Positions 5,831-60,564 are shown, counted from the stretch's first letter. The stretch: DNA of 64,000 nt from a plasmid (NZ_CP024426.1), one strand, 5' to 3'. Numbers and translations are program-made. The notes: generated by a model from the letters alone, not told the origin.

Positions 5831-5864
5831 CGACGTGGGGCCTGGCCAGCAGGGCCAGTCCCCG

Positions 5865-8796: not shown

Positions 8797-8850
8797 CAGG
8801 GGGTCCGGCCGCCTGACGGGCCGGGACGATGGGCCGGGACGGAGGTGCCG

Positions 8851-13193: not shown

Positions 13194-13379
13194 CAGGCCG
13201 GGCGCAACCCGAGGGGCTCTCGACAGATGGATGTTGTCCGACCCCGAAGAAGGCGATACTAGAAGGACCTGAACGCGCAGCGCCTGATCCGACCGGCAGA
13301 GCGGGCCTTGGAACACGGACCTGACTTGGGAACGCCATGCCCCACACGCTGAACGCAACCTCTCTGGGCACCCTGACGG

Positions 13380-16184: not shown

Positions 16185-16302
16185 GCGGGCCGGGACCGCC
16201 GGCCTTTGGCCGATGCGGACGCGACGGCGGGGTTGCGGCTGACCCGCGATATCGCGCACAAGACGGACGATGCCCCCGGCGGGGCGGCGTGGAGGACGGA
16301 CC

Positions 16303-19704: not shown

Positions 19705-19888
19705 CTGGGTTGGTGAAAGGCGGGATGGAGTTGGGGAGGGAGCTAGGACACCTTGGAGTACTATTTCACGTCCGGAACGATTACATAACTTATCTTACAC
19801 TTCTAATAAGTATAGGGGGGGGACGCGCTATCCTGAAATGCGACTTTCTGTGCTCAACAATGGGTTGAGCCATGAAAGGAGCATAGGA

Positions 19889-20446: not shown

Positions 20447-20466
20447 ATTTGGGTGACGCGGCTTGA

Positions 20467-21300: not shown

Positions 21301-21464
21301 CCTGCATCTGGTCTCTGCCCCATTCTTGAGGCTCGGCGCCCGTCAACCGGGCGCAACCCTCAAAGGGAGAATGCCGCGGGAGAGGCCACAGACCCAGTCA
21401 GATCAGGGTCCGATCATGGGGTCTAGTTATGCGGATGGGGTCCAACCTGATCCAGGGTTTACCA

Positions 21465-22277
21465 TCAACTTGCTTGCGCAACGGGCGGGGTGAAGCGCAC
21501 GGCAAGATCGGCCGCAAGCCCTTGCGGATCGCGCAGGCTCTCGGCTGTTACGACGGGTCCTTCATAGGGTTGAATCCGGCCTCCTGCGATCATGTCTTCG
21601 ATCCGGTCCAGCGTGGCGTCGATATTGTCCATTGGTGCTGAAAACAGATCAAAGATCGAATAGCGCCACCATTGCACGGCCAGCAGGCGCTCGACCGCCG
21701 GTTCTGGAAAGCGGAGCCGTCCGACCCGCCCAGGTGTTCCCACGACGATCGAATAGGGCGGTACGTCCCGCAGCACGACCGCGCGGGCGCCGATGATGGA
21801 CCCGGTGCCGATGCGGACGCCCGACTTGATGAAGGCACCCTGCCCGATCCAGACATCGTCGCCGATCTCGGTGATCGGGCAACTCCCCTTGAAGGGACGC
21901 AGACCTTGCCGGATTTCCTCGGTGCGTTGCGGGGCTACAAGCTCGCGCCAGCCGTTCACCTGCGGGAAATAGGCGGCGCGCGATGTGGTCAGCCAGTCCG
22001 TCGGATGCTCATGCATGCCGATGACGACGCCCGCCGCGATCGAGCAATAACGCCCGAAGCGGACATTGTTGATTGTCCCGCCGCTCAGGTTGCAGAACGC
22101 CCCGATATCGATGAATGCTCCTGGCGAGACGGAGCAGATGATCGAGGTCGGCCCCTCGATCCGGGAACCTGCCGCCAGCCTGCCCGTCTGCAGAAGACCC
22201 GGAAGGCGCAGGCCGACGCGGTCCAGCGCCGGAAGATCGGCATGCTTCAGTGTGAAAGTACCTTCGCTCATTTCCAT
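21465..22277 (-). CDS. CatB/Vat-type xenobiotic O-acetyltransferase (hexapeptide-repeat, left-handed beta-helix)
   Basis: Motifs GRYCSIAAGVVIGMHEHPTDW, FPQVNGW, IGDDVWIGQGAFIKSGVRIGTGSIIGARAVVLRDVPPYSIVVGTPGRVGRLRF and a C-terminal LLAVQWWRYSIFDL tail resembling CatB. Start ATG MEMSEG at 22275-22277. Confidence 0.75.
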   Translation of the reverse strand: MEMSEGTFTLKHADLPALDRVGLRLPGLLQTGRLAAGSRIEGPTSIICSVSPGAFIDIGAFCNLSGGTINNVRFGRYCSIAAGVVIGMHEHPTDWLTTSRAAYFPQVNGWRELVAPQRTEEIRQGLRPFKGSCPITEIGDDVWIGQGAFIKSGVRIGTGSIIGARAVVLRDVPPYSIVVGTPGRVGRLRFPEPAVERLLAVQWWRYSIFDLFSAPMDNIDATLDRIEDMIAGGRIQPYEGPVVTAESLRDPQGLAADLAVRFTPPVAQAS

Positions 22278-22322
22278 CTTACCTGTTTTCTTTGCCGATT
22301 GTCGGCGCAAAAGGTTAAGAAA

Positions 22323-23612
22323 TCATTCATCCCGCATCGCCCTTCCCAGATGCCGCAGGATCGGTTCCAGCAGATAGTCGCCCGCCCGACGCTCGCCGGT
22401 CTGGATCGCGACCTCGACCGGCATCCCTGCTGTCAAGGCAATCTCCGGCTGCTCCTCCAGAGCACCCGCATCCAGCGCGACGCGCGCCTCGAAATAGCGG
22501 CTGCCGTCGCGCGGTTCCTCCAGAAGATCGGCGGAAACATAGGTTACCTCGCCCCCAATAGTGGGAGCGACGGCGCGGCGATAGGCCGTCAGCCGGACCC
22601 GTGCCTTGCGTCCCACATGGACGGTGTCAATGGCCTCGGGTGGAAGCCGTACCTGGGCGACCAGCGCGTCGGTGTCGGGTACGACCTCCATCACCACGGC
22701 GCCCGAGCCGATCACCGCGCCAGGCGTCACGATGGGGATATCGACCACCAGGCCATCCTGCGGCGCGCGCAGGGTGCGGCGGCGAAGCACATCTTCCGTT
22801 GCGCGCATCTGCGCTTCAAGCGCGGGAAGACTGCGGCGGGATTGCGCCAGCATTTCGTTTGCTTCGGCCACGCGCTGCTGGCGAAGGGTTGCGATATCGG
22901 CCAGGACGCGCGCGCCGTCGCGTTCGTTCGCCTCGGCCAGCGCGGCATATTCGTCGCGCTCACCCTCCAGGACAGAGATGGTGCGGCCAAGCTCTCGGAG
23001 CTTCTGGGGGGTGGCGGCACCGCGCTCGACGAGAGTTTCGGTATTCGCCAGTTCCTGTCGCCAGCTTTCGATCTGGCGTTCCGAGGCGCGGGCCTGTGCG
23101 CGATTGGCCCTTGCCTGGGCCGACAGATGTTCGGCCTGGCGCATCATCGAGGCGATCTGCCCCTGATGCAGGGCAAGCCGCGCGTCGTGCAGTCCGGCCT
23201 GGGCTGCGATCCGCTGGGGGTCCGCCTCGGGGGCATTGGCGGCATCAAGGGGCGTTCCCTGTGCCTCGGCCTCCAACCGCCAGATGTCGAAGACCAGAGC
23301 GCGACGCTCGGCCTCCATCTGTGCCAGGCGCTCGCGGTCCTGGGTGGTGTCGAGCTGGGCGACCGGCTGGCCGGCCACGACCCGATCACCCGGCGCAACC
23401 AGAAGCCGGGACAGAATGCCGCCTTCCAGGTTCTCGACGGTCTTTCGCCTGCTTTCCGCAAGGATGACCCCCTGCGTGACCACCGCGCCGTCAAGCCGGG
23501 CGTAAACGCCCCATCCGCCCAGTGTGCAGACCAGGAACAGGATCGTCGCTAGCGCCGTCAGAAAGACCGGCCGATAGGTGGGCAGGATTTCGTCATCGGC
23601 TGTCACGCTCAT
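22323..23612 (-). CDS. HlyD-family type I secretion periplasmic adaptor (membrane fusion protein)
   Basis: N-terminal transmembrane anchor, long coiled-coil region and a C-terminal beta domain. Start overlaps the upstream ABC gene stop (ATGA). Confidence 0.85.
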   Translation of the reverse strand: MSVTADDEILPTYRPVFLTALATILFLVCTLGGWGVYARLDGAVVTQGVILAESRRKTVENLEGGILSRLLVAPGDRVVAGQPVAQLDTTQDRERLAQMEAERRALVFDIWRLEAEAQGTPLDAANAPEADPQRIAAQAGLHDARLALHQGQIASMMRQAEHLSAQARANRAQARASERQIESWRQELANTETLVERGAATPQKLRELGRTISVLEGERDEYAALAEANERDGARVLADIATLRQQRVAEANEMLAQSRRSLPALEAQMRATEDVLRRRTLRAPQDGLVVDIPIVTPGAVIGSGAVVMEVVPDTDALVAQVRLPPEAIDTVHVGRKARVRLTAYRRAVAPTIGGEVTYVSADLLEEPRDGSRYFEARVALDAGALEEQPEIALTAGMPVEVAIQTGERRAGDYLLEPILRHLGRAMRDE

Positions 23613-25330
23613 GACATGCGCGCCTCTGCTGCGAGGGCAAGCTTGCGTCGGCTGGGGCCCAGTGCCGCAAGCACCTCGGCCTTGTCGCCGTATTGCGCCA
23701 CCGCGCCGTCACGCAGCAAAAGCAGGCGATCGGCCTTGTTCAGGATCGACATGCGCTGCGCGACGATCAGCACGGCCGCTCCGCGGACGCGGGCATGTTC
23801 AACCGCTTCGACCAGCGCCGCCTCGCCATCGGCGTCCAGCGATGAGTTCGGCTCATCCAACACCAGAAGCTTCGGCATACCGAAAACGGCGCGCGCCAGG
23901 GCGATGCGCTGGCGCTGCCCGCCCGAAAGGCGCGCCCCGGCATCGAGCAGAGGCGTTTCGTAACCCTTGGGCAGGCGGCCGATCATTTCGTGAACCCCGG
24001 CCTGGCGGGCTGCGGCCACCACGTCCTCGATAGGCGCATCGCGGAACCGCGCGATGTTTTCGCGAACCGTTCCGTCAAGCAGCAGCGGCTCTTGCGGAAG
24101 ATAGCCCAGGGCGGCACCAAAACTGGCCCTTTCGTGCAGGAAGGTGGATTGCCCGTCAAGGAAGATGCCCCCCGTGGTCGGTCGCCAGAGCCCGACAACC
24201 AGACGCGCCAGGGTCGATTTTCCGGCGCCCGAGGGACCGATCACGCCCACCATCTCGCCCGGCGCGATGGAAAAGCTGATGTTGCGCAGCAGGGGCGCAT
24301 CCTGCCCGGGCGGCACATAGCTGAGGCGGTCGACTTTCAACTCTGCCCGACCGACCGGAACCGGCACGGCCGAGCGGGTTCTCGCCCCCTCGTGAAGAAG
24401 ATCGCGCAGCCGCCGCGCCACGACCGAGGCATTGACCCACTGCCGCCAGCCATCGATCAGATGCTCGAACGGGGACAGCATGCGCGAGATGATGACCGCC
24501 GCGGCCATGATGGTGCCCGGGCTGACCTCTTGCCGAATGACCAGCGTGGCCCCGGTGCAGATCACCGCAATCTGTAGCCCAACCCGAGATCCGCGTGCCA
24601 GCGCGGCAAGGAATTTTGCCGTGGTCCCGCCCGCCTCGATGCTGTCAAGCGACATGGCCTGCCCCCGTCGCCACCGCCGCGACAGTTCGGGCAGCATGCC
24701 CATCGCCGCGATGACTTCGGAATTGCGGATCGCGCTGGCGGTGTCGGCTTGCAGCACGACGTTCTTCTGGACTGCATTTGCGGCAGGGCGGCGGCCCAGG
24801 ATCTCGGTCGCCAGCGCGATCAGCGTCAGCAGCCCTGCTCCGCAAAGCCCGACCGTTCCGTAGAGCGGATGCAGCAGGAACAGCACGGTCAGCAGGATCG
24901 GCGTGAAGGCCATGTCCATCGGCAAGGTGATCGCACCCCCGGCGACAAAGCCGCGAAGTCCGTTCAGGTCGCGCATGGCGGTCGCGGCCGAGGCTGCCCC
25001 CGACTTCAACGCGTTTTCGATCGCGGCCTCGAACACTGGGCGGCCGAGCGCCATTGAAAGCCGGGCTGCGACGACCAGCAGCAGGCGGGACCGCAGGAAG
25101 TCCAGCATCGACTGGAAGATGAACAGGAACCCCACGATCAGCGTCAGCGCGACCAGCGTGTCGAGGTTTCCCGACGAGATCACGCGGTCGAAGATCTGGG
25201 ATTGGTAAAGCGGCAGTGACAGGTAAAGCAGGTTGACGAAGAAACCGACGCATGCCGCTGCCGCCACCCCCTTGGCCAGGTCGCCCAGGGCCGTGCGCCA
25301 GGGATCCTGCACCAGGCCGCCGTCAGCCAT
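23609..25330 (-). CDS. Type I secretion system ABC transporter (permease/ATPase, PrtD/AprD type, no C39 peptidase domain)
   Basis: A 573-aa product starting MADGGLVQDPW, with a 6-TM domain then an NBD carrying GPSGAGKST, LSGGQRQR and LLVLDEP. The ORF-track start at 25471 was rejected as an Arg-rich extension. Confidence 0.85.
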   Translation of the reverse strand: MADGGLVQDPWRTALGDLAKGVAAAACVGFFVNLLYLSLPLYQSQIFDRVISSGNLDTLVALTLIVGFLFIFQSMLDFLRSRLLLVVAARLSMALGRPVFEAAIENALKSGAASAATAMRDLNGLRGFVAGGAITLPMDMAFTPILLTVLFLLHPLYGTVGLCGAGLLTLIALATEILGRRPAANAVQKNVVLQADTASAIRNSEVIAAMGMLPELSRRWRRGQAMSLDSIEAGGTTAKFLAALARGSRVGLQIAVICTGATLVIRQEVSPGTIMAAAVIISRMLSPFEHLIDGWRQWVNASVVARRLRDLLHEGARTRSAVPVPVGRAELKVDRLSYVPPGQDAPLLRNISFSIAPGEMVGVIGPSGAGKSTLARLVVGLWRPTTGGIFLDGQSTFLHERASFGAALGYLPQEPLLLDGTVRENIARFRDAPIEDVVAAARQAGVHEMIGRLPKGYETPLLDAGARLSGGQRQRIALARAVFGMPKLLVLDEPNSSLDADGEAALVEAVEHARVRGAAVLIVAQRMSILNKADRLLLLRDGAVAQYGDKAEVLAALGPSRRKLALAAEARMS

Positions 25331-26603
25331 GACGCACCGCCAGCCCGGCCTTGGCATTCCGGGCGAGGATCTTTTCGAACAGGCTGGCGTGCAGCCGCGC
25401 GGCCTCGTCCGCGCCCGTCGGGGGCCGGATGCCGGCATGGAGACGATCCCAGACCTGCGGGTCCATGGCACGGGTCATCGCCTCGGCCAGGCTTTCCGGG
25501 TTCGAGACGCGGAAATGCATTCCGTCGATGCCATCCCGCACCTTTTCCGCCATTCCGCCGATGTCCGATGCGATGATCGGACGGCGGTGGTGAAACGCCT
25601 CCTGAATGACGACGGGCGCGTTCTCCCACCAGGTCGAGGGCACGATCGTCCAGTCCACCTCGCGCATCAGATGCGGCAGGTCGGCGCTTTTGTACGACCC
25701 CATGAACCGCAGGCGGCGGCCGGAAAGGCGGAACAGTTCCTTGACCTGCGCCTGAAATTCCTCGGGCTGGTGCTCCAGGTTGCCGCCGAAGATATAGAGG
25801 ATACCGTCGCCCCAGGTCTTCTCGGGGATGCGGGTGACGGCTTCGACCAGGACCTTGATGCCCTTGAAGGGGTTGAGCTGTCCGAAATAGGCGAAGCGGT
25901 TGCGCCGTCCGCCTGGCGGCAGGGCGCGCGCCTGGGCAACCGGTCCGCCATCCAGGCCATTCTCGATCATCACCAGCTTTTCGCGGGGCAGGCCCCAGTC
26001 CTGAAAGCGCTTCAACAGGAAGCGCGAAGGAGAGACGAAGGCGTCGACCTGGGCAAGGAAGGATTTGATGAACAGTTCCCGGCGCAGCATGTTCGCCGCG
26101 CCGATCTGGGGAAAGCACATGCCGCAGTCCGAGGCTGAGGCCTTCATGCACAGGGCACCATTCTTGGCCTTGATCATCTGGCCGTGATGGGCGCAGATCG
26201 GCAGGAACTCGTGCAGGGTATAGACGATCGGCACGTCGCCCAAGGCGCGGCGCGTGGCGCGGATCGCCTGGATCCCGAAGCCCATGACGTGATGGAAGTT
26301 CACGATATCGGGCCGCAGGTCCGCCAGGAAGCGTTCGAAATGCTGGATCAAGGCGCCCGTATCGTTCAGTCCCAGGTGGAACCAGTCGTAGTCATTGGTC
26401 CAGAACAGGGTTTCATCCGGTGCTTGGCCCAGGGACATCAGGGGCGTCGCGGCATGGCGCGCGACCGGGGGGCCGACCCCGGCGATGTAGTGTGCGTCCC
26501 AGCCCGGCTGTCGCTTCATCGCCTGGAACAGGTTGTAGGATGCGACCTGTGCCCCGCCGATGGAAAAGGCCGGGTGGGCATGGCTCAGCACAAGGGCTTT
26601 CAT
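25323..26603 (-). CDS. Glycosyltransferase family 4
   Basis: GT-B fold; E-x7-E-like motif WWENAPVVIQEAFHHRRPIIASDIGGMAE. ATGA overlap with the gene upstream (26600). Confidence 0.8.
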   Translation of the reverse strand: MKALVLSHAHPAFSIGGAQVASYNLFQAMKRQPGWDAHYIAGVGPPVARHAATPLMSLGQAPDETLFWTNDYDWFHLGLNDTGALIQHFERFLADLRPDIVNFHHVMGFGIQAIRATRRALGDVPIVYTLHEFLPICAHHGQMIKAKNGALCMKASASDCGMCFPQIGAANMLRRELFIKSFLAQVDAFVSPSRFLLKRFQDWGLPREKLVMIENGLDGGPVAQARALPPGGRRNRFAYFGQLNPFKGIKVLVEAVTRIPEKTWGDGILYIFGGNLEHQPEEFQAQVKELFRLSGRRLRFMGSYKSADLPHLMREVDWTIVPSTWWENAPVVIQEAFHHRRPIIASDIGGMAEKVRDGIDGMHFRVSNPESLAEAMTRAMDPQVWDRLHAGIRPPTGADEAARLHASLFEKILARNAKAGLAVRHG

Positions 26604-28753
26604 CCGAGTCGGTCTCCGCTGACGGTGAACGCCATCTTGCCCGTCAAAGATGAATCAACCCTTTCCAGCAGGCGAACGATTGCATCGGTGGGGCCGGGAA
26701 GGTCCTCAAGCGCCCAGAAATCGACCCTGCGCGATGCCCAGGTGCCGAAGCCCTGGTCGTGCAAGCGGCGGGCAAGGTCGCGGTGGACCATCGCATCGGA
26801 ATAAAGCTGCCCCGAAAAGCCCCCTGCCGCAGCCATCGCCTGGCGGTCGATCAGGGCAAGCTGGGCCGCGCCGGCGGGCATCGGGCGCGGCGCGCCGCGG
26901 ATCATCCACCCCAGCGGATAGCCCAGCATGGGCGTGCTGTTTTCCTCGGTCGCGCCTTCGCCGCCGTAAAGGATGGACCCATCCTCATAGACCAAGGTGG
27001 GCGAGATCAGGCCGGGTGCGCCCAGCCCCGCAAGCTCGTCCTCCAGCAGGTCGAGCCAGCCAAGCGTCGCGGGCAGGGCCGAGGGCTGCCAGAGCAGCAC
27101 CCGCGAGCCCGCGGCATGGGCAAGCCCAGCCTCGACCCGGGCGCAGAAATCGGTCTGGTCCGGGACCAGAAGCAGCCTGCCGCGAAGCCCGTAGAAAGCG
27201 AAAAGATCCTTGAGCCGCGTCGGAACACCCGCGGCTGCGGCCCGCGCCATGACGATCACCAGATCAAGCCGGTCCGCCTCGGCTGTCCCGGCCAGAAGCG
27301 CCATCATCGGTTGCAGGTGGTCAAGCTTGCCAAGCGGGACAATGGCCGCGATCTCTCCGGCCTGAGTGGACAGCGGAATCGGTCGCTGCGGGGCGCGGCT
27401 TTTCCGCTGCCGCGGAGGAAGCCGCGCCAGGAATGGCGCCAGCGCATCCTCGATGATCTGGTCAAGCGCCGGATCGTGCAGGGGAATGGCCGGAAGGATA
27501 TGCGGCAACAACTCACGCCCCTCGAGCCGGGTGATCTTTAGCGGGCGGAACAGGCAGCTGCCATCGTCAAGGATCAGTTCCAGATAGAATTCCTCGTCCC
27601 CCTTGCGCGGGCCACCCGGCGCGAAGGCGATGAAGCCATGCATGGTGTCCGTGGGATCGAGCAGGCGCGCAAAACGGGGATCGGCCGCGAAGCCATCGTT
27701 CAGGTCGGCGCGAGGAAGCGGGTTCCAGCGGTCATGCAAAGGCGCATAAAGCCCGGTCGTGCTTTTGATGATGACGCGTTCGACCCGCCGCAGCGGGTCC
27801 AGCAGCCAACCCATCGCCAGAAGCCCGCCCAAGGGCGCCTCGAACACCGCATCGAAGGCGGCGGCCACCGGCAGGAGGGTCGACGACAGGGTGTCGGTGC
27901 CTTGATAGCGGGGGCGGCAGATGCGCCGGAAAACGCCCGCCGCATCGGCGTCGCAATCCAGCCGGGGCAGCATGTGGCGGACATGATCGGTCGCGGCCTC
28001 GCCACGCAGCCTGAGGACCGCGCCGCGCACCACCTCAAGCCGCTTCAGGATGCCGTCCTGTTCATAGAACAGGCAGTCGAGCGTCTCCAGATCGGACCCG
28101 CGCCAGTCCAGGCTGAACAGGCAGAACCCCGTGCCCGGCGGTGGGATGTCGTCGCGTGGAAAGACGGCGGCATTCGCGTTGCAAAGCTCCAGCGTGCCGT
28201 TCAGGCGGGCCAGCCGATGGGGGCCTGGGGCCAGCGCCATCGCCCAGCCCTGGGCGAAAAGACCGCCCGTATCAGGACAGGCGAGGATTTCGACAAAGCC
28301 GCCGGCCTCGGACGCCATGAGAAAGGCGGCCGCGAATTCGTGGTCGCTGCCGCGTGTTTCGCCGGTCGCGGACCCGGCCAGCGCCTCGGTCAGGAACTCG
28401 AACACCTTTCGGCTGTTCAGGCCGCTGCGGCGGACGAATTCCGCCAGCGGCCCCGGTGCGACATCCACGGCGCGCGGCGTGGCGATCTGTCGTTCGTCGC
28501 CGCCGGGGCCACGCAGCCGGCCGGTCCCGACCAGCGGCGTTTCGACAAGCGCCAGCCCGGCGCGCCCGTCCTGTGCGGGCCAGCAGGTCGCGCGCCAGGG
28601 CGCATCCCCGCAAAAGCCGCGCCGTGGCAGTGCGCTGCCCAGCTGCGACAGCGCCAGAAGCGTCCGCCCGCCGGGCAGGATGATCGCCAGATCGGGGGTC
28701 AGCACCGCGTCTTCGGGCGGGGCTGCGAAAAAGGCGCCGTCGGCGGGGCTCAT
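26600..28753 (-). CDS. Large hypothetical protein (717 aa), paralogous to 29988..31958; C-terminal region may be a GT-like nucleotide-sugar-binding fold
   Basis: No confidently recognised domain. Shares its architecture and C-terminal motifs (IAAIVPLG/IVTAIG; LLLVPD/LVLLPG; WLDLLEDEL/WLPFWLRRL) with the paralog. ATGA coupling on both sides. Confidence 0.55.
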   Translation of the reverse strand: MSPADGAFFAAPPEDAVLTPDLAIILPGGRTLLALSQLGSALPRRGFCGDAPWRATCWPAQDGRAGLALVETPLVGTGRLRGPGGDERQIATPRAVDVAPGPLAEFVRRSGLNSRKVFEFLTEALAGSATGETRGSDHEFAAAFLMASEAGGFVEILACPDTGGLFAQGWAMALAPGPHRLARLNGTLELCNANAAVFPRDDIPPPGTGFCLFSLDWRGSDLETLDCLFYEQDGILKRLEVVRGAVLRLRGEAATDHVRHMLPRLDCDADAAGVFRRICRPRYQGTDTLSSTLLPVAAAFDAVFEAPLGGLLAMGWLLDPLRRVERVIIKSTTGLYAPLHDRWNPLPRADLNDGFAADPRFARLLDPTDTMHGFIAFAPGGPRKGDEEFYLELILDDGSCLFRPLKITRLEGRELLPHILPAIPLHDPALDQIIEDALAPFLARLPPRQRKSRAPQRPIPLSTQAGEIAAIVPLGKLDHLQPMMALLAGTAEADRLDLVIVMARAAAAGVPTRLKDLFAFYGLRGRLLLVPDQTDFCARVEAGLAHAAGSRVLLWQPSALPATLGWLDLLEDELAGLGAPGLISPTLVYEDGSILYGGEGATEENSTPMLGYPLGWMIRGAPRPMPAGAAQLALIDRQAMAAAGGFSGQLYSDAMVHRDLARRLHDQGFGTWASRRVDFWALEDLPGPTDAIVRLLERVDSSLTGKMAFTVSGDRLG

Positions 28754-29991
28754 GCCGAAACCTTTCGTGAGAGGGTGCGATAGATGTCCAGATGGGCGTC
28801 GACAAAGGCGCGATAGGCGTCATCCCTGTGCCGGCTGCGCTGCGCCGCCGCCATGCGCGCATGGGCTGCCGGATCGCTGGCGGCGGCGCGCATCGCCTCG
28901 GCCAGGGCACGGGGATCGCCCGGGGGGACATGCAGGCCGGTCGTGCCATGCGCCACCATCTCGGCCATGCCGCCGATGCCCGAGCAGATCACCGGCAGGC
29001 CCGCCGCGCGGGCCTCCAGCACCACCAGCGGGGCGTTTTCCCACCAGAGCGACGGCAGGACCAGCCAGTCGGCGCGCGCCATCAGCGCCGACAGATCCGC
29101 GCGGTTATAGGGGCCATGGTGGGCAGCGTTGGGGGTCGCTGCAAGCGCCTCGGCGAACTCGCGGCGAAAACCGGCCTCGGCGTGGCCCAGCCCGCCGTGC
29201 AGGTCCAGCGTAAGCGCCTCTCCCGCAAGGCGGGTCGCGGCCATCAGGGGCAGCACGCCCTTGTGCGGGGCGATATTGCCGAAATAGGCGAAGCGGTCGG
29301 GATTTGCACGCGGACCGCGCTGCGGGTGGGGCGCAGGCTGAACCTGGTTGGGCAGGACGGTGATCCGGCCCGCGTCGAGCCCCCAATCGACAAAGCATTC
29401 CGCCAGAAAGCGTGACGGCGCGATGAAGGCATCGACCAGCGAAAGCAGCGCCGTCAGATGCGCCTTGCGCAGCAGATGCGCTGCGGCGGGCATGTCCGGG
29501 TAACAGCGCCGGCAGCGGTCCTGCCCGGGATTTCGACAGCGCGCACCTTCGGGGACCGTCAGCATCAACCCGTCGTTCGGACACAGGATCTGGTAATCGT
29601 GCAAGGTCAATACGATGCGTGCCCGGGGCGCGAGGCGTCGCAGCACCGCCAGCACCTCGGCCCCGATCCGGTCCAGCCCGTGCAAATGCACCACGTCCGG
29701 GCGGACATGGCCCAACAGCCGCCCCATCGAGGCGACCCAGTCGGTGCCATCCTGCCGCAGCATGGAAAAGCGGTCATAGCGCCCGGTGCGCAGCAGGTGA
29801 TCCCCGCCTTCCAGGCCCAAGGCCCCCGGCGCATCGCTCGGGCGCTGCAGCGCGGTGGTCGCGGCCAGCAATCGGGCCCGCACCCCCGGGGTCGCATCCA
29901 GCGCGCGGGTCAGGTCATGGGCCAGGATTTCCGTTCCGCCGCTTGTATAGGCGGGGTGATCATGAACGATGTGCAGCACCTGAAGGGTCAT
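28750..29991 (-). CDS. Glycosyltransferase family 4 (paralog of 25323..26603)
   Basis: Motifs FGNIAPHKGV, LPSLWWENAPLVVLEARAAGLPVICSGIGGMAE, about 45% identity by eye to the other GT4. ATGA coupling. Confidence 0.8.
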   Translation of the reverse strand: MTLQVLHIVHDHPAYTSGGTEILAHDLTRALDATPGVRARLLAATTALQRPSDAPGALGLEGGDHLLRTGRYDRFSMLRQDGTDWVASMGRLLGHVRPDVVHLHGLDRIGAEVLAVLRRLAPRARIVLTLHDYQILCPNDGLMLTVPEGARCRNPGQDRCRRCYPDMPAAAHLLRKAHLTALLSLVDAFIAPSRFLAECFVDWGLDAGRITVLPNQVQPAPHPQRGPRANPDRFAYFGNIAPHKGVLPLMAATRLAGEALTLDLHGGLGHAEAGFRREFAEALAATPNAAHHGPYNRADLSALMARADWLVLPSLWWENAPLVVLEARAAGLPVICSGIGGMAEMVAHGTTGLHVPPGDPRALAEAMRAAASDPAAHARMAAAQRSRHRDDAYRAFVDAHLDIYRTLSRKVSA

Positions 29992-31958
29992 GCGCGATCC
30001 CTTTCCATCAAGGCAAACCCCGCCTCGGCCAAGGCGGTGGTAAAGGCGCCGGGCGCCGGTACAGGGCCGAACCTGCGGAACGGTCGGCGCGTTTCGGTCC
30101 GGGCGCTGCCGCCCAGGGCCGAGGCGATCCAGAGCGCCGGATCGGGGTGCGGCGCGGCCTGCAGCAGCCGCGCGATTCCCGCAGGCCCAAGCGCCAGACA
30201 GTCGACCAGCGGTCGGCGGACCGGCCGGCCCGAGGCGGGCAGATCCGTGGCCGGCAATCCACGGCGGGGATCCTCACCCTCTTGCGTCGCGGCAATCGAG
30301 CCGTCGCTTGCCAGCAAGGCGGGTGCCAGGGCCTCTGGCTGGCGCAGGCGCCGCAGCCAGAAGGGCAGCCAGCCCCGGCCCTCGGGCAGGACATCGGCGC
30401 CCAGCAGCAGCGTCGGGACCTCTTGCGCTTCGGCCAGGGCAATACGCAACCGCTCGGCCACGCTGGCGACGCCGGGCAGCAGCACCAGCCGATGCGGGAT
30501 GCCATAGATCGCCGCGGTCTGGGCCAGCGCATGACGCGCGCCTGCCGCCAGCGGTCCGTCGGTCATGGTGCAGATCACCTCGACCGGCGCGCCCTTCCCC
30601 TCGGCCAGGATCATGGCGGCGCGCGCCCGGATCATGTCGGCCGATTCGCCGATTGCAGTCACGATCTGCAGCCCGCATTTCTGCACGGGGCCGAAATGCT
30701 GCGCGACGGACGGCGGCATTGCGCGGTGAAAGCCGGCCCGGGCCCGGGCCAGCGGCGGCAGGACATCGGCGCCAAGCGCCCAGGCGTCCTCGAAGCCCGG
30801 GGGGATGCCGCCGTCGTAGGCCGCGACCGGCGCCTCGGCCAGATTGCGCAGATGACCGGAACGGTACAGCACGCGAATGCGGCAGGTGTCGCGGGCCCGC
30901 ATCTCGCCCGGCAGATCGGCAAGGCCTGCCAGGATCGTTGTCCCGTCGACCCCATGCGCTGGCGTCAGCGCGGCCTGCCGACCCTGCCGCTCAAGGATCA
31001 CCTTGCGGATCAGGCGTGAAGGATCCGTGAGCACCAGGGCATGAAGCAGTCCCGAAGGCAGCGCCGACAGATGCCGGATCGCGATGCGGGGTTCGGTCAG
31101 CCCGCTGGCAGGACGGCGCCCCGTGGCGACCACGTCGGTCCCGACGCGCGTTGACAGCCAGTCGCGGCAGTCCTTTCCACGGTCCCGCAGCCATGCCGCG
31201 GCCGGCTGGCGGCGCAGCGATCCGCCTTCCGCGCCCAGCCGAAGCGGCGCATCGGCGAAAGCCACGATCTGCGCGGGGGCAAGACCGCGCGGCAGCAGCA
31301 CATGCAGCAGCGTCCCTTCGAACAGGCAATCGAAATCCTTGAACGGGACCGGGCGACCGTCCTGGATCGTCACGGCAGTGCCGGGACCGCGCAGGCCGGC
31401 AAGACCGGGCGCGGCATAGCTGACCAGCGCCCGCCCCGCGACCTGCGTTTTCGCGATGGGGGCAAGGGCCGGAATCTTGCAGAGGTCCATCAGATGCAAG
31501 GCGGCCTCGGCAAGCCCCGCCGGTGCCTCAGCCGCGAAAAGCGAGGCTCCGGTGGTCAGCATCATCCGCAGCAGCCGGCACAGGCCCGGCGCCGAAAGCT
31601 GCGCGGCCAGCGTCGCGAGATCGCCTTGCGGCGCCTGCAGCCAGCCGGGGTCGATCTCGGCGGCCGGCAAGTCGTTCAGGCGCAACAGCAGGTGGCGCGC
31701 CAGCACGGCTTCGATCCCCTGCGGAACGAACAGCACATGCCGCGTGCCCCCCGACCTCAGGCCCAGTTCCGCCGCGATAAAGGGGCGCGGGACGGGCTCG
31801 CCGTCCTGTTCCGCCTGCATCCTTTCGCGCCGCCCCCCGGGCTGATCGAAAAAGATCGCGCTCAGCGAAGGGCCCAACGCGACCGCCATCGCCTCGTCAG
31901 GGCGGGCGGGCAAGCGCGGAACCGGCGCGCGCAGCGTTCGGTCAAGAGGGATGTTCAT
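29988..31958 (-). CDS. Large hypothetical protein (656 aa), paralog of 26600..28753
   Basis: ATG as reverse complement of 31956-31958; no recognised domain; see the paralog. Confidence 0.55.
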   Translation of the reverse strand: MNIPLDRTLRAPVPRLPARPDEAMAVALGPSLSAIFFDQPGGRRERMQAEQDGEPVPRPFIAAELGLRSGGTRHVLFVPQGIEAVLARHLLLRLNDLPAAEIDPGWLQAPQGDLATLAAQLSAPGLCRLLRMMLTTGASLFAAEAPAGLAEAALHLMDLCKIPALAPIAKTQVAGRALVSYAAPGLAGLRGPGTAVTIQDGRPVPFKDFDCLFEGTLLHVLLPRGLAPAQIVAFADAPLRLGAEGGSLRRQPAAAWLRDRGKDCRDWLSTRVGTDVVATGRRPASGLTEPRIAIRHLSALPSGLLHALVLTDPSRLIRKVILERQGRQAALTPAHGVDGTTILAGLADLPGEMRARDTCRIRVLYRSGHLRNLAEAPVAAYDGGIPPGFEDAWALGADVLPPLARARAGFHRAMPPSVAQHFGPVQKCGLQIVTAIGESADMIRARAAMILAEGKGAPVEVICTMTDGPLAAGARHALAQTAAIYGIPHRLVLLPGVASVAERLRIALAEAQEVPTLLLGADVLPEGRGWLPFWLRRLRQPEALAPALLASDGSIAATQEGEDPRRGLPATDLPASGRPVRRPLVDCLALGPAGIARLLQAAPHPDPALWIASALGGSARTETRRPFRRFGPVPAPGAFTTALAEAGFALMERDRA

Positions 31959-31994
31959 GCCCTGGCACCTTGGACGAAGGGATGGAAAGGAAAG

Positions 31995-32019
31995 GTCCGG
32001 GCACGGAGGGCGCCCGGAC
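31995..32019 (-). promoter_or_regulatory. Intra-operon hairpin (GUCCGGGC-9nt-GCCCGGAC) followed by a C/U-rich tract, between the RTX gene and downstream secretion/glycosylation genes; putative attenuating terminator
   Basis: A perfect 8-bp GC-rich inverted repeat 3' of the RTX stop (32028), followed on the minus strand by CUUUCCUUUCC. Confidence 0.35.
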
Positions 32020-32027
32020 CGTCCGCA

Positions 32028-32870
32028 TCAGACCACGGTAAAGAAGCGGCCCGGGTCCGCGGTCACGTCGTCATAGGACACGCCGTGCAGCAGGACGCTG
32101 TCGCCCTGGCCGAAGTCGATCAGCGTGCCGGCGTCGCCAAGGTCGACGGCGAAATCGGCCACTTCCTCGGCCGAGCCCAGCGTCACCCCCTCCAGCCGCG
32201 AGGAGATCTGGATGATGTCGCCGTCGGTAAAGTCCATGACCACGTCGCCGCCGCCCGAGAAGGTGAACAGGTCCTCCCCCTCGCCGCCATAAAGGACGTC
32301 GTCGCCGGTGCCGCCGTCCAGGGTATCGCGGCCGGCACCCCCTTCAAGCAGGTCGTCGCCTTCGCCGCCCAGCAGAAGATCATCGCCCAGCCCCCCAAGG
32401 ATCTGGTCGTCGCCGGCGTTCCCCAGCAGCGTGTCGTCGCCGACGTCGCCCGAAAGAGTATCGTCGCCCGCACCGCCGTCCAGCAGATCGTCGCCGGTGC
32501 CGCCGGCCAGGGCATCGTCCCCCGCGCCGCCTTCCAGCGTGTCGTCGCCGGCACCGCCTGCCAGAAGGTCGCTGCCCGCGCCGCCCTGCATCAGGTCGTC
32601 GCCCGCACCGCCGGACAGGGTGTCGTTCCCTTCCCCGCCGTAAAGCGCATCGTCCCCGGTGCCGCCCAGCAGCTGGTCGTCGCCGGACCCGCCATACAGC
32701 CGATCGTCGCCCGAACCGCCGTTCAGCAGGTCGTCGCCCGCCTCGCCGTGAACGATGTCGTCGCCCGAGCCGGACATGACGGTATCATGCCCCGCTCCGG
32801 CTGCGATGAAGTCCGAGAGCGACGTCCCGAACAAGAAGTCGCTGAACGCGCCCCCTGGTATCGTGGCCAT
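32028..32870 (-). CDS. RTX calcium-binding repeat protein (280 aa), putative T1SS substrate
   Basis: About 15 GGxGxDxL repeats ([29 protein letters not shown]...) and a C-terminal non-repeat tail. ATG MATIPGG with AAAGGGG upstream; the TTG at 32897 is an alternative start. Confidence 0.75.
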   Translation of the reverse strand: MATIPGGAFSDFLFGTSLSDFIAAGAGHDTVMSGSGDDIVHGEAGDDLLNGGSGDDRLYGGSGDDQLLGGTGDDALYGGEGNDTLSGGAGDDLMQGGAGSDLLAGGAGDDTLEGGAGDDALAGGTGDDLLDGGAGDDTLSGDVGDDTLLGNAGDDQILGGLGDDLLLGGEGDDLLEGGAGRDTLDGGTGDDVLYGGEGEDLFTFSGGGDVVMDFTDGDIIQISSRLEGVTLGSAEEVADFAVDLGDAGTLIDFGQGDSVLLHGVSYDDVTADPGRFFTVV

Positions 32871-33068
32871 GATGACCCCTTTCTTGCTGTGATCCAATGC
32901 GGCGGAAGCTAAACCAAAGCGTGCAGACGGCCGACGTCTATTTACTTAAAATTGCAGGCTTTTCCGGTTCGCTTCGGCAATGCGGTCCCGCTAGCATCCG
33001 TCCGACGTTCCAGTCCCGGGCATCACCGGGGCGCAGGATCAGGGCCGCTTCAAACTGGAAAAGCAACC

Positions 33069-34259
33069 ATGGCGACGTATTCAGACCTGAAATCGACCAT
33101 TCTGTCCGACGAACTCTTTCGCCTCCTGCCGACCGGCCTCGACCCGGCGGAATCCGAGGGGCTGGATTTCGCCAGGACCGCCATCGGCATCCTGGCCGGC
33201 GCCCTGTCCCAAGGCCTGCAAATCGGCGGAAGCGGGGCCGACACGCTTGCCGGCGGTCCGGGCAACGATGTCATGCTTGGACTCGCCGGCGACGATTCCC
33301 TGCACGGCGGTGCGGGCTGGAACCTGCTGTTCGGAGGTGAGGGCAACGATGTGCTGGACGTGCGCTGGCTGACCGATCCCGACCGAGGCGGCCTGTCCTA
33401 TGACGACTGGGCCGAGGCAAAGCCCGCCGCCGGGGACGGGTTGTTCGGCGGCGCGGGTAATGATTCGCTCTTTGGATCGTTCGGGTCCGATCTGCTGCTG
33501 GGTGGTGCAGGGAGCGACCTTCTCAGCGGGCAGGATGGCAACGACCTGCTGGATGGCGGATCCGGCGACGACCGGCTCGAAGGCGATGCCGGGCGCGACA
33601 GCCTTCATGGCGGCGCAGGCAACGATACGCTGTCAGGGGGCTTGGGCGAAGACCGGCTTTATGGCGGCGACGGCAGGGACAGGTTGCAGGGCGACAATGG
33701 CAACGACCTGCTGGACGGCGGCTTGGGAAACGACACGCTTCATGGCGGCTTTGGCGACGACAGCATCACGGGCGGCGCGGGCAACGACTGGGTGGATGCC
33801 GGCGGCGGCGACGACAGCATCGACCTTGGCGACGGCAATGATTTCGCCGCCGCGATCGAGGATTTCGGGCGCGGCGACGATTCCATCTTTGGCAGGGCGG
33901 GCAACGACACGCTGCATGGCGGGCGCGGCAACGACATGATCGACGGCGGCGCGGGCGACGATGCCCTGAACGGCGGCGCGGGCGACGATTTCCTGACCGG
34001 CGGCGGCGGTGCCGACCTGTTCCAGTTCCGCAGCGCGCATGGCGTGGACATCATCGCCGATTTTTCCGACGAGGATCGCCTGATCATCACCCGCAACATC
34101 AATGGCCAGTCCATCGACCCAGAATCGCTTGGCGACCGGTTGCAGGACCTGGGCGATGCCGCTTACCTGGATCTGGGCAACGGTCATGGCGTGATCTTCC
34201 TTGGCCACGACGCCGAGACGCTGGGCGAGCTTTTGCAGACCAGGGTGGATTTCTGGTAA
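33069..34259 (+). CDS. RTX calcium-binding repeat protein (396 aa), divergent from the RTX gene at 32870
   Basis: Tandem GGxGxDxL repeats; C-terminal tail DFSDEDRLIIT...; ATG at 33069. Confidence 0.75.
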   Translation: MATYSDLKSTILSDELFRLLPTGLDPAESEGLDFARTAIGILAGALSQGLQIGGSGADTLAGGPGNDVMLGLAGDDSLHGGAGWNLLFGGEGNDVLDVRWLTDPDRGGLSYDDWAEAKPAAGDGLFGGAGNDSLFGSFGSDLLLGGAGSDLLSGQDGNDLLDGGSGDDRLEGDAGRDSLHGGAGNDTLSGGLGEDRLYGGDGRDRLQGDNGNDLLDGGLGNDTLHGGFGDDSITGGAGNDWVDAGGGDDSIDLGDGNDFAAAIEDFGRGDDSIFGRAGNDTLHGGRGNDMIDGGAGDDALNGGAGDDFLTGGGGADLFQFRSAHGVDIIADFSDEDRLIITRNINGQSIDPESLGDRLQDLGDAAYLDLGNGHGVIFLGHDAETLGELLQTRVDFW

Positions 34260-34384
34260 AGGCGGGACGGCTGGCAGCCGAGGCCACACAGGCCGAGCGC
34301 GGCTCAAGGCGTAAAGCTTGCGCAGGCAACAGCTGAATTTTCCACCTTCTGCCCAAAATTGAACTGCTTTAAGGTCATGTCATT

Positions 34385-60361: not shown

Positions 60362-60564
60362 GTCAAGCATCGCCCCCTGATCGGACGGTCGCCGTGGTTC
60401 GGAACCGCACGGTTTCGTGACTGGCCCTCTGGCGCCGTCGACGATTTGCCGCTAGGCAACGGTTCAGCCGGAGAGGAGGCGTCACGCCCCCTCGCCACGG
60501 GCAGACTATATGCTAGATTGACAATCCTTAGACGGATAATTGCAGACTGCAGGGTAATTGGTCC

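What the first reader, a model, noticed from the sequence alone, without database searches (positions are those of the whole stretch)
21465..34259. Operon coupling a type I secretion system to paired GT4 glycosyltransferases, two paralogous unknown large proteins, RTX-repeat substrates and a CatB-type acetyltransferase
Eight co-oriented minus-strand genes (RTX protein 32870-32028, unknown B, GT4, unknown A, GT4, T1SS ABC, HlyD, hexapeptide acetyltransferase) are linked by ATGA or 4-8 nt overlaps. A second RTX gene is divergently transcribed from the same promoter region (32898-33068). The RTX proteins have no catalytic domain. An intra-operon hairpin (31995-32019) separates the substrate gene from the machinery. 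A T1SS operon with glycosyltransferases and acetyltransferase inserted between substrate and transporter is not a described archetype: hly/apr/prt operons lack them, and Caulobacter RsaA O-antigen genes are not interleaved with the transporter. It suggests a dedicated system that glycosylates or acetylates either an RTX protein or a cell-surface glycan to which the secreted RTX protein anchors, S-layer-like.
Basis: partly seen in the sequence, partly recalled or inferred. Interest (0 to 1): 0.8.

Follow-up and report, generated by a model that had tools for sequence, protein, structure and literature searches.

The report
Galactoglucan-like polysaccharide and RTX secretion operon
This gene cluster on a Paracoccus yeei plasmid is a compact relative of the Sinorhizobium meliloti genes that make the exopolysaccharide galactoglucan and need a type I-secreted calcium-binding protein to do so, so it is a new example of a known but poorly understood system, not a new kind.

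Summary
Eight co-oriented minus-strand genes lie at 21465-32870, a divergent second RTX gene at 33069-34259, four junctions overlap as ATGA, one overlaps by 8 nt, and an 11-bp GC-rich hairpin follows the first RTX gene. The novelty claim does not hold. The cassette is collinear with, and homologous gene by gene to, the S. meliloti pSymB expE/expD (wge/wgd) genes for galactoglucan (EPS II):
- GT4 25323-26603 matches ExpE7 (53% identity).
- GT4 28750-29991 matches ExpE4 (43%).
- "Unknown A" matches ExpE6 (28% over 649 aa, E 1e-45).
- "Unknown B" matches ExpE2 (profile probability 97%).
- The ABC and HlyD proteins match ExpD1 and ExpD2.
- RTX1 matches ExpE1, including the non-repeat N- and C-termini.

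The parts
21465..22277 (-). Hexapeptide-repeat (XAT/Vat/CatB-like) O-acetyltransferase. It is the last gene, 45 nt after HlyD.
   Evidence: Pfam Hexapep. NCBIfam Vat/CatB/phn hits are all below cut-off. RefSeq names it 'CatB-related O-acetyltransferase' in the sister plasmid. It is conserved downstream of HlyD in about 30 of 37 Rhodobacterales loci at 59-85% identity. There is no homologue in the part of the S. meliloti exp locus that was examined.
22323..23612 (-). HlyD-family T1SS membrane fusion protein, homologue of ExpD2/WgdB.
   Evidence: TIGR01843 at 302 bits, above the cut-off. 32% identity over 430 aa to S. meliloti ExpD2. N-terminal TM segment at 13-38.
23609..25330 (-). PrtD-type T1SS ABC permease/ATPase, homologue of ExpD1/WgdA.
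   Evidence: TIGR01842 at 577 bits, above the cut-off. 45% identity over 541 aa to S. meliloti ExpD1. Its start overlaps the GT4 stop by 8 nt.
25323..26603 (-). GT4 glycosyltransferase, orthologue of ExpE7/WgeG.
   Evidence: Pfam GT4/GT1 domains. 53% identity over the full length to S. meliloti ExpE7, E 1e-150. The EX7E-type motif WWENAPVVIQEA and four invariant Cys residues are retained. It is the most conserved gene of the cassette, at 72-91% identity.
26600..28753 (-). 'Unknown A': ExpE6/WgeF homologue. It is a soluble 717-aa protein with N-terminal beta-sandwich/helical modules and a C-terminal GT-A fold domain that lacks an acidic DxD motif.
28750..29991 (-). GT4 glycosyltransferase, orthologue of ExpE4/WgeD.
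   Evidence: Pfam GT4/GT1. 43% identity to S. meliloti ExpE4, E 1e-92. The same Cys cluster and EX7E-type motif as the other GT4.
29988..31958 (-). 'Unknown B': a strongly diverged ExpE2/WgeB homologue. It has the same architecture as A and a GT-A fold with decayed GT2 motifs.
31994..32020 (-). GC-rich hairpin directly after the RTX1 stop codon. It is probably a partial terminator or transcript stabiliser that sets the ratio of RTX to enzyme transcripts.
   Evidence: 11-bp stem with 9 G-C pairs and tail TTTCCTTTCC. z = -2.5. Hairpins of -30 to -59 kcal/mol sit at the same position, with different sequence, in Amaricoccus, Cereibacter, Sinorhizobium, Phyllobacterium and Azospirillum.
32028..32870 (-). 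RTX1: orthologue of the secreted Ca-binding protein ExpE1/WgeA. It is the first gene of the operon and a T1SS substrate.
   Evidence: Eleven RTX stretches and no other domain. The alignment shows the shared N-terminus MAT(I/L)(P/E)GGA(F/Y).D..FG and a conserved C-terminal domain of about 80 aa in common with ExpE1 of Sinorhizobium, Phyllobacterium and Azospirillum.
32871..33068 (.). Divergent control region between RTX1 and RTX2. It contains an AT-rich element, CTATTTACTTAAAATTGCAG (32938-32957), that is conserved among Paracoccus species.
   Evidence: Sequence. Unique occurrence in the window. Conserved block in the alignment of Paracoccus intergenic regions. The scan found no sigma-70 consensus site.
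33069..34259 (+). RTX2: second RTX protein, divergently transcribed, and a likely second substrate of the T1SS.
   Evidence: Nine RTX stretches only. Present in the same divergent position in most Rhodobacterales loci at 37-71% identity. There is no counterpart in the S. meliloti exp locus.
60532..63998 (+). Possibly associated second locus: a DUF6212 protein (60532-61986) and a GT2+GT4 fusion glycosyltransferase (62004 to the window end). They are homologous to the DUF6212 protein and the 893-aa glycosyltransferase that lie upstream of the expD genes in S. meliloti (my reading: wgaA-wgaB). A sulfotransferase (59582-60361), a hypothetical gene and a LuxR-type regulator lie upstream.
   Evidence: Pfam DUF6212 at 238 bits; GT2 plus GT4 domains. 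29% identity over 689 aa to the S. meliloti 893-aa glycosyltransferase. The sister plasmid shows the full 884-aa gene. These genes are not linked to the cassette in the other 37 genomes, and DUF6212 homologues carry different species names.

Best explanation
The cluster is the Rhodobacterales version of the S. meliloti expE/expD (wge/wgd) module for the exopolysaccharide galactoglucan (EPS II). It most likely produces an O-acetylated extracellular hexose polymer whose production or release depends on type I secretion of a small RTX protein.

Proposed working:
1. One promoter region drives RTX2 in one direction. In the other direction it drives RTX1, followed by B, GT4, A, GT4, ABC, HlyD and the acetyltransferase.
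2. The hairpin after RTX1 lets only part of the transcription continue, so the secreted protein is made in excess over the enzymes.
3. The two GT4 enzymes have intact catalytic motifs. Together with the two large soluble GT-A-domain proteins, they form a cytoplasmic, membrane-associated glycosyltransferase assembly. A lacks the DxD motif, and B is a decayed ExpE2. They may act as scaffold or acceptor-binding subunits, not as standard enzymes.
4. The hexapeptide acetyltransferase decorates the sugar.
5. The PrtD-type ABC protein, the HlyD adaptor and an unlinked TolC-like channel export RTX1, and probably RTX2, through their C-terminal signals.
6. As in S. meliloti, the exported Ca-binding protein is needed for polymer production or release.

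Shown here: homology, collinearity, folds, motif states, the conserved hairpin and synteny across taxa. Taken from the literature: ExpE1 secretion by ExpD1/D2/TolC, and its requirement for EPS II. Inferred: the nature of the Paracoccus product, the roles of A and B, attenuation at the hairpin, and the coupling mechanism.
For: Homology with S. meliloti pSymB, gene by gene:
- GT4_1 matches ExpE7 at 53% identity (E 1e-150).
- GT4_2 matches ExpE4 at 43% (E 1e-92).
- A matches ExpE6 at 28% over 649 aa (E 1e-45).
- The ABC protein matches ExpD1 at 45%, and HlyD matches ExpD2 at 32%.
- B matches ExpE2 by profile comparison (probability 97.2%).
- RTX1 shares the non-repeat N- and C-terminal regions with ExpE1.

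Gene order and distribution:
- The order E1-E2-E4-E6-E7 is the same in both clusters.
- The same core is found in Phyllobacterium and Azospirillum plasmids.

Folds and motifs:
- A and B have a GT-A fold.
- Both GT4 proteins keep the EX7E-type motif.

Conservation:
- The hairpin after the RTX gene is conserved in position in six taxa.
- The nine-gene cassette is syntenic in about 37 Rhodobacterales genomes in different genomic contexts.

Literature:
- ExpE1/WgeA is secreted via ExpD1/D2 and TolC, and expD mutants lack EPS II (PMC1403797; PMC2912261; PMC13438883).
[quoted passage not shown] That fits the presence of an acetyltransferase.
Against: - No cassette protein other than the ABC and HlyD proteins has a transmembrane segment.
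- The cassette and its flanks contain no priming phosphoglycosyltransferase, flippase, polymerase or outer-membrane polysaccharide export protein.
- The wga-type genes that the reviews count among the EPS II biosynthesis genes of S. meliloti are absent from the cassette. They are unlinked in the other genomes and lie 26 kb away in P. yeei.
- There is no pyruvyl transferase, GalE, methyltransferase or MarR regulator.
- B has lost the canonical GT2 motifs and A has no DxD motif, so only two enzymes are clearly competent.
- No experimental data were found for this cassette in any Rhodobacterales species.
- The role of ExpE1 is unresolved even in S. meliloti.
Confidence: 0.68

Rival explanations
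1. RTX glycoprotein or S-layer-like system. The cytoplasmic glycosyltransferases and the acetyltransferase modify RTX1 and/or RTX2 themselves, or a short glycan carried on them. The T1SS then exports the modified protein to form a surface or matrix layer.
For: - The cassette is self-contained and moves as a unit between genomic contexts.
- Its only membrane components are the T1SS proteins.
- It has no lipid-carrier or polysaccharide export genes.
- The substrates and enzymes are tightly co-conserved.
- Glycosylated RTX surface proteins exist: SwmA and oscillin (PMC3034196).
- S. meliloti is credited with six potential glycosyltransferases for a disaccharide repeat (PMC3233446), so some may have another acceptor.
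Against: - The papers read here did not report ExpE1 glycosylation.
- T1SS substrates are thought to pass unfolded through a narrow channel, which bulky glycans would hinder (established knowledge, not tested here).
- RTX1 is almost entirely Ca-binding nonapeptides, with no Ser/Thr-rich or sequon-rich segment.
- In S. meliloti the known output of the homologous genes is a free polysaccharide.
Confidence: 0.12
2. The ABC/HlyD/TolC machine is itself the polysaccharide exporter. The polymer is made in the cytoplasm by the glycosyltransferase complex and passes through the same tripartite system. The RTX proteins act outside the cell as Ca-dependent chaperones, cross-linkers or release factors.
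For: - The cassette encodes no other export route.
- One review lists wgdA/wgdB as potentially engaged in polymerisation (PMC3233446).
- TolC is required for EPS II, and also for a mixed-linkage beta-glucan (MLG) in S. meliloti. The authors of that work discuss direct passage of glucan through TolC (PMC13438883).
- The last GT4 gene and the ABC gene overlap by 8 nt, which suggests translational coupling.
Against: - The ABC protein scores above the curated cut-off of the PrtD protein-exporter family. It is 45% identical to ExpD1, which demonstrably secretes a protein.
- In S. meliloti the EPS II defect of tolC mutants is attributed to lack of WgeA secretion (PMC2912261).
- No papers read here describe a PrtD-type T1SS exporting a polysaccharide.
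Confidence: 0.12
3. The RTX/T1SS unit is functionally independent of the glycosyltransferases and merely sits next to them.
For: T1SS operons and GT genes are both common in alphaproteobacteria. No expression data are available for this locus.
Against: - ATGA and 8-nt overlaps link every gene from B to HlyD.
- The order is identical in about 37 genomes, and the core is shared across three orders.
- Genetic dependence has been shown for the S. meliloti homologues.
Confidence: 0.03

Closest known systems
Sinorhizobium meliloti galactoglucan (EPS II) exp/wge-wgd gene cluster on pSymB (ExpE1-E8, ExpD1/D2; Becker et al. 1997, Moreira et al. 2000, as cited in PMC1403797 and PMC3233446)
   Same: - Orthologous RTX protein, PrtD-type ABC and HlyD adaptor.
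- Two GT4 enzymes (ExpE4, ExpE7), the ExpE6-type large protein and an ExpE2-type large protein.
- The same order, E1-E2-E4-E6-E7.
- A hairpin after the RTX gene.
- No Wzx/Wzy-type genes in the part of the locus examined.
   Different: - The T1SS genes lie downstream in the same operon, not in a separate operon upstream.
- ExpE3 (methyltransferase), ExpE5, ExpE8, the MarR regulator WggR, ExpC and the pyruvyl transferases are absent.
- The ExpE2 homologue has lost its GT2 motifs.
- A hexapeptide acetyltransferase and a second, divergent RTX gene are added.
- wga-type genes are unlinked.
- The product is unknown.
Rhizobium leguminosarum PrsD-PrsE T1SS, linked with the EPS (pss) genes; it secretes PlyA/PlyB glycanases and Rap adhesins
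   Same: A PrtD-type T1SS that is functionally tied to exopolysaccharide genes. Its secreted Ca-binding proteins act on or with the EPS (PMC3233446).
   Different: The substrates there are glycanases and lectin-like adhesins. Here the RTX proteins have no catalytic domain. The GT genes are not homologous to, or interleaved in the same way as, those of this cassette. That EPS is attributed to a Wzx/Wzy-type pathway (from knowledge, not checked in the papers read here).
Caulobacter crescentus RsaA S-layer with the RsaD/RsaE T1SS and neighbouring O-antigen genes
   Same: An RTX-type protein secreted by a T1SS whose function depends on a surface glycan encoded nearby (from knowledge, not tested here).
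   Different: RsaA is a large S-layer protein (about 1000 aa) that anchors to LPS O-antigen. There is no ExpE-type GT set, and the genes are not orthologous.
Glycosylated cyanobacterial RTX surface proteins (SwmA of Synechococcus WH8102, oscillin of Phormidium)
   Same: RTX proteins reported as glycosylated and surface-located (PMC3034196). They are a precedent for the rival explanation.
   Different: No sequence relationship was tested. Those proteins are far larger and function in motility.
Classical PrtDEF/AprDEF protease T1SS operons
   Same: The ABC and MFP subfamilies (TIGR01842, TIGR01843) and C-terminal-signal RTX substrates.
   Different: Those operons carry an OMF gene, a protease and an inhibitor, and have no glycosyltransferases.

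Membership tests
Galactoglucan-type (Exp/Wge-Wgd) EPS locus | ExpE1/WgeA-type small RTX protein with family-specific N- and C-terminal regions | tested here: met
   The alignment shows the conserved MAT(I/L)(P/E)GGA(F/Y).D..FG N-terminus and a C-terminal domain of about 80 aa shared with ExpE1 of three other genera. 44% identity over 225 aa.
Galactoglucan-type (Exp/Wge-Wgd) EPS locus | Dedicated ExpD1/ExpD2 T1SS pair | tested here: met
   45% identity to ExpD1 and 32% to ExpD2 over the full length. Both are above the NCBIfam cut-offs.
Galactoglucan-type (Exp/Wge-Wgd) EPS locus | ExpE4 and ExpE7 GT4 glycosyltransferases flanking an ExpE6-type protein | tested here: met
   43% and 53% identity for the GT4 pair, with reciprocal best pairing. 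A matches ExpE6 at 28% over 649 aa, E 1e-45. The order GT4-A-GT4 is the same.
Galactoglucan-type (Exp/Wge-Wgd) EPS locus | ExpE2-type GT2 beta-glycosyltransferase after the RTX gene | tested here: inconclusive
   B occupies that position and is homologous over 559 profile columns (probability 97.2%) with a GT-A fold. The NxGY, LNSD and ED.DLC motifs of ExpE2 are decayed, so catalytic equivalence is doubtful.
Galactoglucan-type (Exp/Wge-Wgd) EPS locus | Accompanying wga operon (DUF6212, GT2-GT4 fusion, pyruvyl transferases, dTDP-sugar genes), wgcA and the MarR regulator wggR | tested here: not met
   None is adjacent. Only DUF6212 and the GT2-GT4 fusion occur, 26 kb away. There is no pyruvyl transferase or MarR gene in the flanks. 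These genes are not linked in 37 other cassette loci.
Galactoglucan-type (Exp/Wge-Wgd) EPS locus | The product is a Glc-Gal disaccharide polymer, and RTX secretion is required for its production | not testable with these tools
   Needs genetics and carbohydrate chemistry.
Type I secretion system | ABC exporter and MFP of the T1SS subfamilies | tested here: met
   TIGR01842 at 577 bits and TIGR01843 at 302 bits, both above the cut-off.
Type I secretion system | Outer-membrane factor (TolC family) | not tested
   None is present in the cassette or its immediate flanks. The rest of the genome is not available. It is also unlinked in S. meliloti.
Type I secretion system | Substrate with RTX nonapeptides and a C-terminal uncleaved signal | tested here: met
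   11 and 9 RTX stretches, followed by a non-repeat C-terminal domain. Secretion itself was not tested.
GT2/GT-A glycosyltransferases (for proteins A and B) | GT-A Rossmann-like fold | tested here: met
GT2/GT-A glycosyltransferases (for proteins A and B) | DxD-type metal/nucleotide-sugar motif and catalytic acidic motif | tested here: not met
   A has (P/G)-S at the DxD position in all six taxa aligned. B keeps one acidic residue (GAD/GSE) but lacks the ED.DL motif. No Pfam GT2 hit for either.
Type B chloramphenicol / streptogramin acetyltransferases (CatB/Vat) | Score above the curated family cut-off | tested here: not met
   80-91 bits against cut-offs of 300-350. It is a hexapeptide XAT-like enzyme, not a resistance CatB.

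The most novel reading that the evidence does not exclude
The nine-gene Rhodobacterales cassette is a self-sufficient machine in which the type I secretion system is the only export route for the glycan. Either the GT4/GT-A complex builds the chain on the RTX protein (protein-primed synthesis) and the conjugate is secreted, or the PrtD-type ABC/HlyD/TolC channel carries the polysaccharide itself. Either mechanism would explain the long-standing puzzle of why galactoglucan production needs ExpD1/D2 and ExpE1, and would add a polysaccharide secretion route distinct from the Wzx/Wzy, ABC (Wzm/Wzt, KpsMT) and synthase pathways.
Probability: 0.12. Interest if true: 0.8.

Novelty: new member of a known kind. 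Interest (0 to 1): 0.35.

Why it matters
The link between a type I-secreted RTX protein and galactoglucan production has been known in S. meliloti since 1997-2000, but its mechanism has not been explained. The Rhodobacterales cassette is a natural minimal version of that system: one operon with two RTX proteins, four glycosyltransferase-fold proteins, the T1SS and an acetyltransferase. It has no other membrane component, and it is conserved in about 37 genomes, including the genetically tractable Cereibacter. That makes it a cleaner system for asking what the RTX protein does for the glycan, and what the ExpE6/ExpE2-type proteins do. Those proteins are assigned here to a GT-A fold with missing or decayed catalytic motifs. 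The cassette sits on a plasmid of P. yeei, an opportunistic human pathogen, so it may also bear on surface or biofilm properties.

Tried and rejected
- Pfam, NCBIfam and PDB sequence searches gave nothing for A and B. Only the tblastn search of plasmids, profile comparison and structure prediction resolved them.
- The sigma-70 promoter scan found no site in 21000-34600. It is uninformative for this organism.
- Terminator-like hits other than the RTX1 hairpin were at the level expected by chance (10 found against 8.4 expected).
- The afdb50 fold library was not available. Foldseek against the PDB added only further GT-A hits and nothing clear for the N-terminal modules.
- The primary papers (Becker 1997, PMC178839; Bahlawane 2008, PMC2394980) are not held. 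Statements about ExpE1/ExpD therefore rest on reviews and on later papers that cite them.
- The quorum-sensing-controlled pxm polysaccharide cluster of P. denitrificans (PMC13235738) is a different locus, based on a phosphoglycosyltransferase.
- I tested whether the DUF6212/GT2-GT4 pair is an obligatory partner of the cassette. It is not within 10 kb in any of the other loci, and its homologues carry other species names. I list it only as possibly associated.
- I considered the acetyltransferase as an antibiotic-resistance CatB and rejected that reading: its scores are far below the cut-offs, and it has a conserved place in the operon.

Full report
**1. What is in the sequence**

The window is GC-rich (about 64-75%). 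It is near-identical to plasmids of Paracoccus yeei: 98.9% amino-acid identity for protein A to NZ_CP044079.1, and 98% to plasmid pYEE46822P11.

On the minus strand the order is:
- RTX1, 32028-32870
- B, 29988-31958
- GT4, 28750-29991
- A, 26600-28753
- GT4, 25323-26603
- ABC, 23609-25330
- HlyD, 22323-23612
- hexapeptide acetyltransferase, 21465-22277

RTX2 (33069-34259) is transcribed divergently.

Pfam and NCBIfam confirm the family assignments. The ABC and HlyD proteins exceed the curated cut-offs of the PrtD-type T1SS families. The two RTX proteins hit nothing but RTX repeats. The acetyltransferase is Vat/CatB-like but far below those cut-offs.

Four junctions are ATGA overlaps, and GT4/ABC overlap by 8 nt. 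The acetyltransferase follows HlyD after 45 nt.

The hairpin after RTX1 has an 11-bp stem with nine G-C pairs and a partly T-rich tail.

The cassette is bounded on the left by insertion-sequence fragments and two hybrid histidine kinases. On the right lie a MocR-type regulator and an amino-acid ABC transporter, which RefSeq annotates as ectoine uptake and utilisation genes in the sister plasmid. No polysaccharide export or priming genes lie next to it.

**2. What the two "unknown" proteins are**

A and B have no Pfam, NCBIfam or PDB sequence match. Their mutual similarity is limited to about 190 C-terminal residues (profile-profile probability 93%).

**3. The decisive comparison**

A tblastn search of plasmid records with A found S. 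meliloti pSymB and plasmids of Ensifer, Phyllobacterium, Neorhizobium, Azospirillum and Chelatococcus. The pSymB hit lies inside the galactoglucan (EPS II) exp/wge cluster.

Gene by gene:
- GT4 25323-26603 matches ExpE7 (53% identity, E 1e-150).
- GT4 28750-29991 matches ExpE4 (43%, E 1e-92).
- A matches the 738-aa hypothetical ExpE6 (28% over 649 aa, E 1e-45).
- ABC matches ExpD1 (45%).
- HlyD matches ExpD2 (32%).
- RTX1 matches ExpE1 (44%).

B gave no BLAST hit, but its family profile aligns with ExpE2 over 559 columns (probability 97.2%, E 4e-11). ExpE2 is a recognisable GT2.

RTX1 and ExpE1 share their non-repeat N-terminus and a C-terminal domain of about 80 residues. The relationship is therefore not an artefact of RTX repeats.

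The order RTX, ExpE2-type, GT4, ExpE6-type, GT4 is the same in both clusters. The same core also occurs in Phyllobacterium zundukense and Azospirillum argentinense plasmids, there with a methyltransferase, pyruvyl transferases, GalE and a MarR regulator.

**4. What is known about the homologous system**

Reviews and later papers report the following:
- The exp cluster directs galactoglucan synthesis.
- ExpE2 is taken as a beta-glucosyltransferase, and ExpE4/E7 as galactosyltransferases.
- ExpE1 is a secreted Ca-binding protein.
- ExpD1/D2 (PrtD/PrtE-like) are needed for its secretion, and expD mutants make no EPS II (PMC1403797; PMC3233446).
- TolC is the outer-membrane partner. The EPS II defect of tolC mutants is attributed to lack of WgeA secretion (PMC2912261; PMC13438883).
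- EPS II is a disaccharide polymer of acetylated glucose and pyruvylated galactose (PMC5748678).

A T1SS and its RTX substrate embedded among glycosyltransferases is therefore a described arrangement. An R. sphaeroides gene has even been labelled "expE1, galactoglucan metabolism" in a transcriptome table (PMC6909082).

**5. How the Paracoccus version differs**

A scan of one genome per species found 38 loci. 37 of them are Paracoccus, Paenirhodobacter, Cereibacter, Rhodobacter or Amaricoccus genomes, or related metagenome bins. These keep the order RTX2(-) | RTX1-B-GT4-A-GT4-ABC-HlyD-(x)-acetyltransferase, in different genomic neighbourhoods.

Compared with S. meliloti:
- The T1SS genes are fused to the end of the enzyme operon.
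- The methyltransferase, ExpE5, ExpE8, ExpC, the MarR regulator and the pyruvyl transferases are missing.
- A hexapeptide acetyltransferase and a second RTX gene are added.

The motif alignment separates three states:
- ExpE2 of the Hyphomicrobiales and of Azospirillum keeps the canonical GT2 signatures (NxGY..NAG, LNSDV, FEDGS, EDSDLCL).
- Rhodobacterales B keeps only a single acidic residue at the DxD position and has lost the rest. B is also the fastest-evolving gene (28-63% identity, against 72-91% for the ExpE7-type GT4).
- The ExpE6/A family lacks an acidic residue at the DxD position in all six taxa aligned. It conserves YEDGS and a later Asp.

Both GT4 proteins keep an EX7E-type motif and four invariant cysteines.

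None of the enzymes or RTX proteins has a predicted transmembrane segment. Only ABC and HlyD do.

The A/ExpE6 family has 196 representatives at 50% identity with E<=1e-30.

**6. The hairpin and the promoter region**

A stable hairpin directly follows the RTX gene's stop codon in Paracoccus, Amaricoccus, Cereibacter, Sinorhizobium, Phyllobacterium and Azospirillum. The sequences are unrelated. That pattern argues for a conserved function, most simply partial termination or transcript stabilisation, giving more RTX message than enzyme message. This is inference, and no transcript data were available.

The divergent intergenic region contains an AT-rich block (32938-32957) that is conserved among Paracoccus species. 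It is a candidate promoter or regulator site.

**7. A possibly related second locus**

At 57776-64000 lie a LuxR-type regulator, a hypothetical gene, a sulfotransferase, a DUF6212 protein and a GT2+GT4 fusion glycosyltransferase. The last two are homologous to, and collinear with, the DUF6212 protein and the 893-aa glycosyltransferase that sit upstream of the expD genes in S. meliloti. I take these two S. meliloti genes to be wgaA-wgaB.

The GT2+GT4 fusion would be a natural alternating polymerase for a beta/alpha disaccharide repeat. However, the pair is not near the cassette in the other genomes, and DUF6212 homologues carry different species names. It is not an obligatory partner.

**8. Interpretation**

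The best-supported reading is a galactoglucan-type extracellular glycan module whose output depends on T1SS export of a small RTX protein (confidence about 0.68). The homology itself is close to certain.

The main weakness is the absence of any glycan export or priming function in a cassette that otherwise behaves as a self-contained unit. This keeps two less conventional readings alive:
- The RTX proteins are themselves the glycosylation targets. Glycosylated RTX surface proteins are known (PMC3034196).
- The tripartite T1SS carries the polymer.

Neither has direct support. Both are testable with the experiments listed under the next steps.

**9. Verdict**

The novelty claim is refuted by a documented homologous system. 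I class the finding as a new member of a known kind, with moderate interest (0.35). Its value is as a minimal, widely conserved version of an old unsolved coupling between type I secretion and exopolysaccharide production, and as a fold assignment for the ExpE6/ExpE2-type proteins.

Noticed in passing
window 57776-64000: Second glycan-related locus: a LuxR-type autoinducer-binding regulator (57776-58573, -), a hypothetical gene (58578-59540), a sulfotransferase (59582-60361), a DUF6212 protein (60532-61986) and a GT2+GT4 fusion glycosyltransferase (62004 to the window end). The last two are homologous to, and collinear with, the DUF6212 protein and 893-aa glycosyltransferase upstream of the expD genes in S. 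meliloti (my reading: wgaA-wgaB). The sulfotransferase hints at a sulfated polymer.
   Followed up: partly
window 1938-3815 (+): A third RTX protein (625 aa) has nine RTX stretches and a serralysin-type C-terminal domain, but no protease domain was detected. It may be another substrate of a T1SS.
   Followed up: no
window 19652-21153: Insertion-sequence remnants lie at the left edge of the cassette: an HTH_38 (IS30-like) ORF on the + strand and a truncated Mutator-family transposase on the - strand. The sister plasmid NZ_CP044079.1 has an IS3 transposase on the same side. This flank is a hot spot for rearrangement.
   Followed up: partly
L047 (JBLNCP010000049.1, bin labelled Solirubrobacterales) 4800-20300: A contig binned as an actinobacterium carries a complete S. 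meliloti-like set: ExpE1, a canonical ExpE2 (39% identity), the methyltransferase, ExpE4, ExpE6, ExpE7, then ExpD1/D2, an ExpC-like GT and a pyruvyl transferase. The T1SS lies downstream of ExpE7, as in Paracoccus. This is either an intermediate arrangement or a mis-binned alphaproteobacterial contig.
   Followed up: partly
window 25323-26603 and 28750-29991 (proteins): Both GT4 enzymes and their Sinorhizobium and Azospirillum orthologues share four invariant cysteines (C137, C152, C160 and C163 in the first GT4; pattern C-x14-C-x7-C-x2-C) inside the N-terminal Rossmann domain. This is a possible zinc site that I do not associate with typical GT4 enzymes.
   Followed up: partly
window 32938-32957: The AT-rich element CTATTTACTTAAAATTGCAG lies in the divergent RTX1/RTX2 intergenic region. 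It is conserved among Paracoccus species although the genome is about 67% GC. It is a candidate promoter or regulator binding site.
   Followed up: partly
window 13377-19704 (+): Two adjacent large hybrid histidine kinases with multiple PAS/GAF domains and receiver domains (935 and 1144 aa) lie just upstream of the IS remnants. No link to the cassette was tested.
   Followed up: no
window 54815-57694: A bacterial animal-haem-peroxidase family protein (602 aa, +) lies next to a GSU2403-type nucleotidyltransferase-fold protein (-). They are unrelated to the finding.
   Followed up: no
L001 16668-18083 (Amaricoccus macauensis) and several other Amaricoccus loci: In Amaricoccus a TPR-repeat protein is inserted between HlyD and the acetyltransferase. 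The Phyllobacterium cluster also carries a TPR protein, together with a GH16 glycanase.
   Followed up: no
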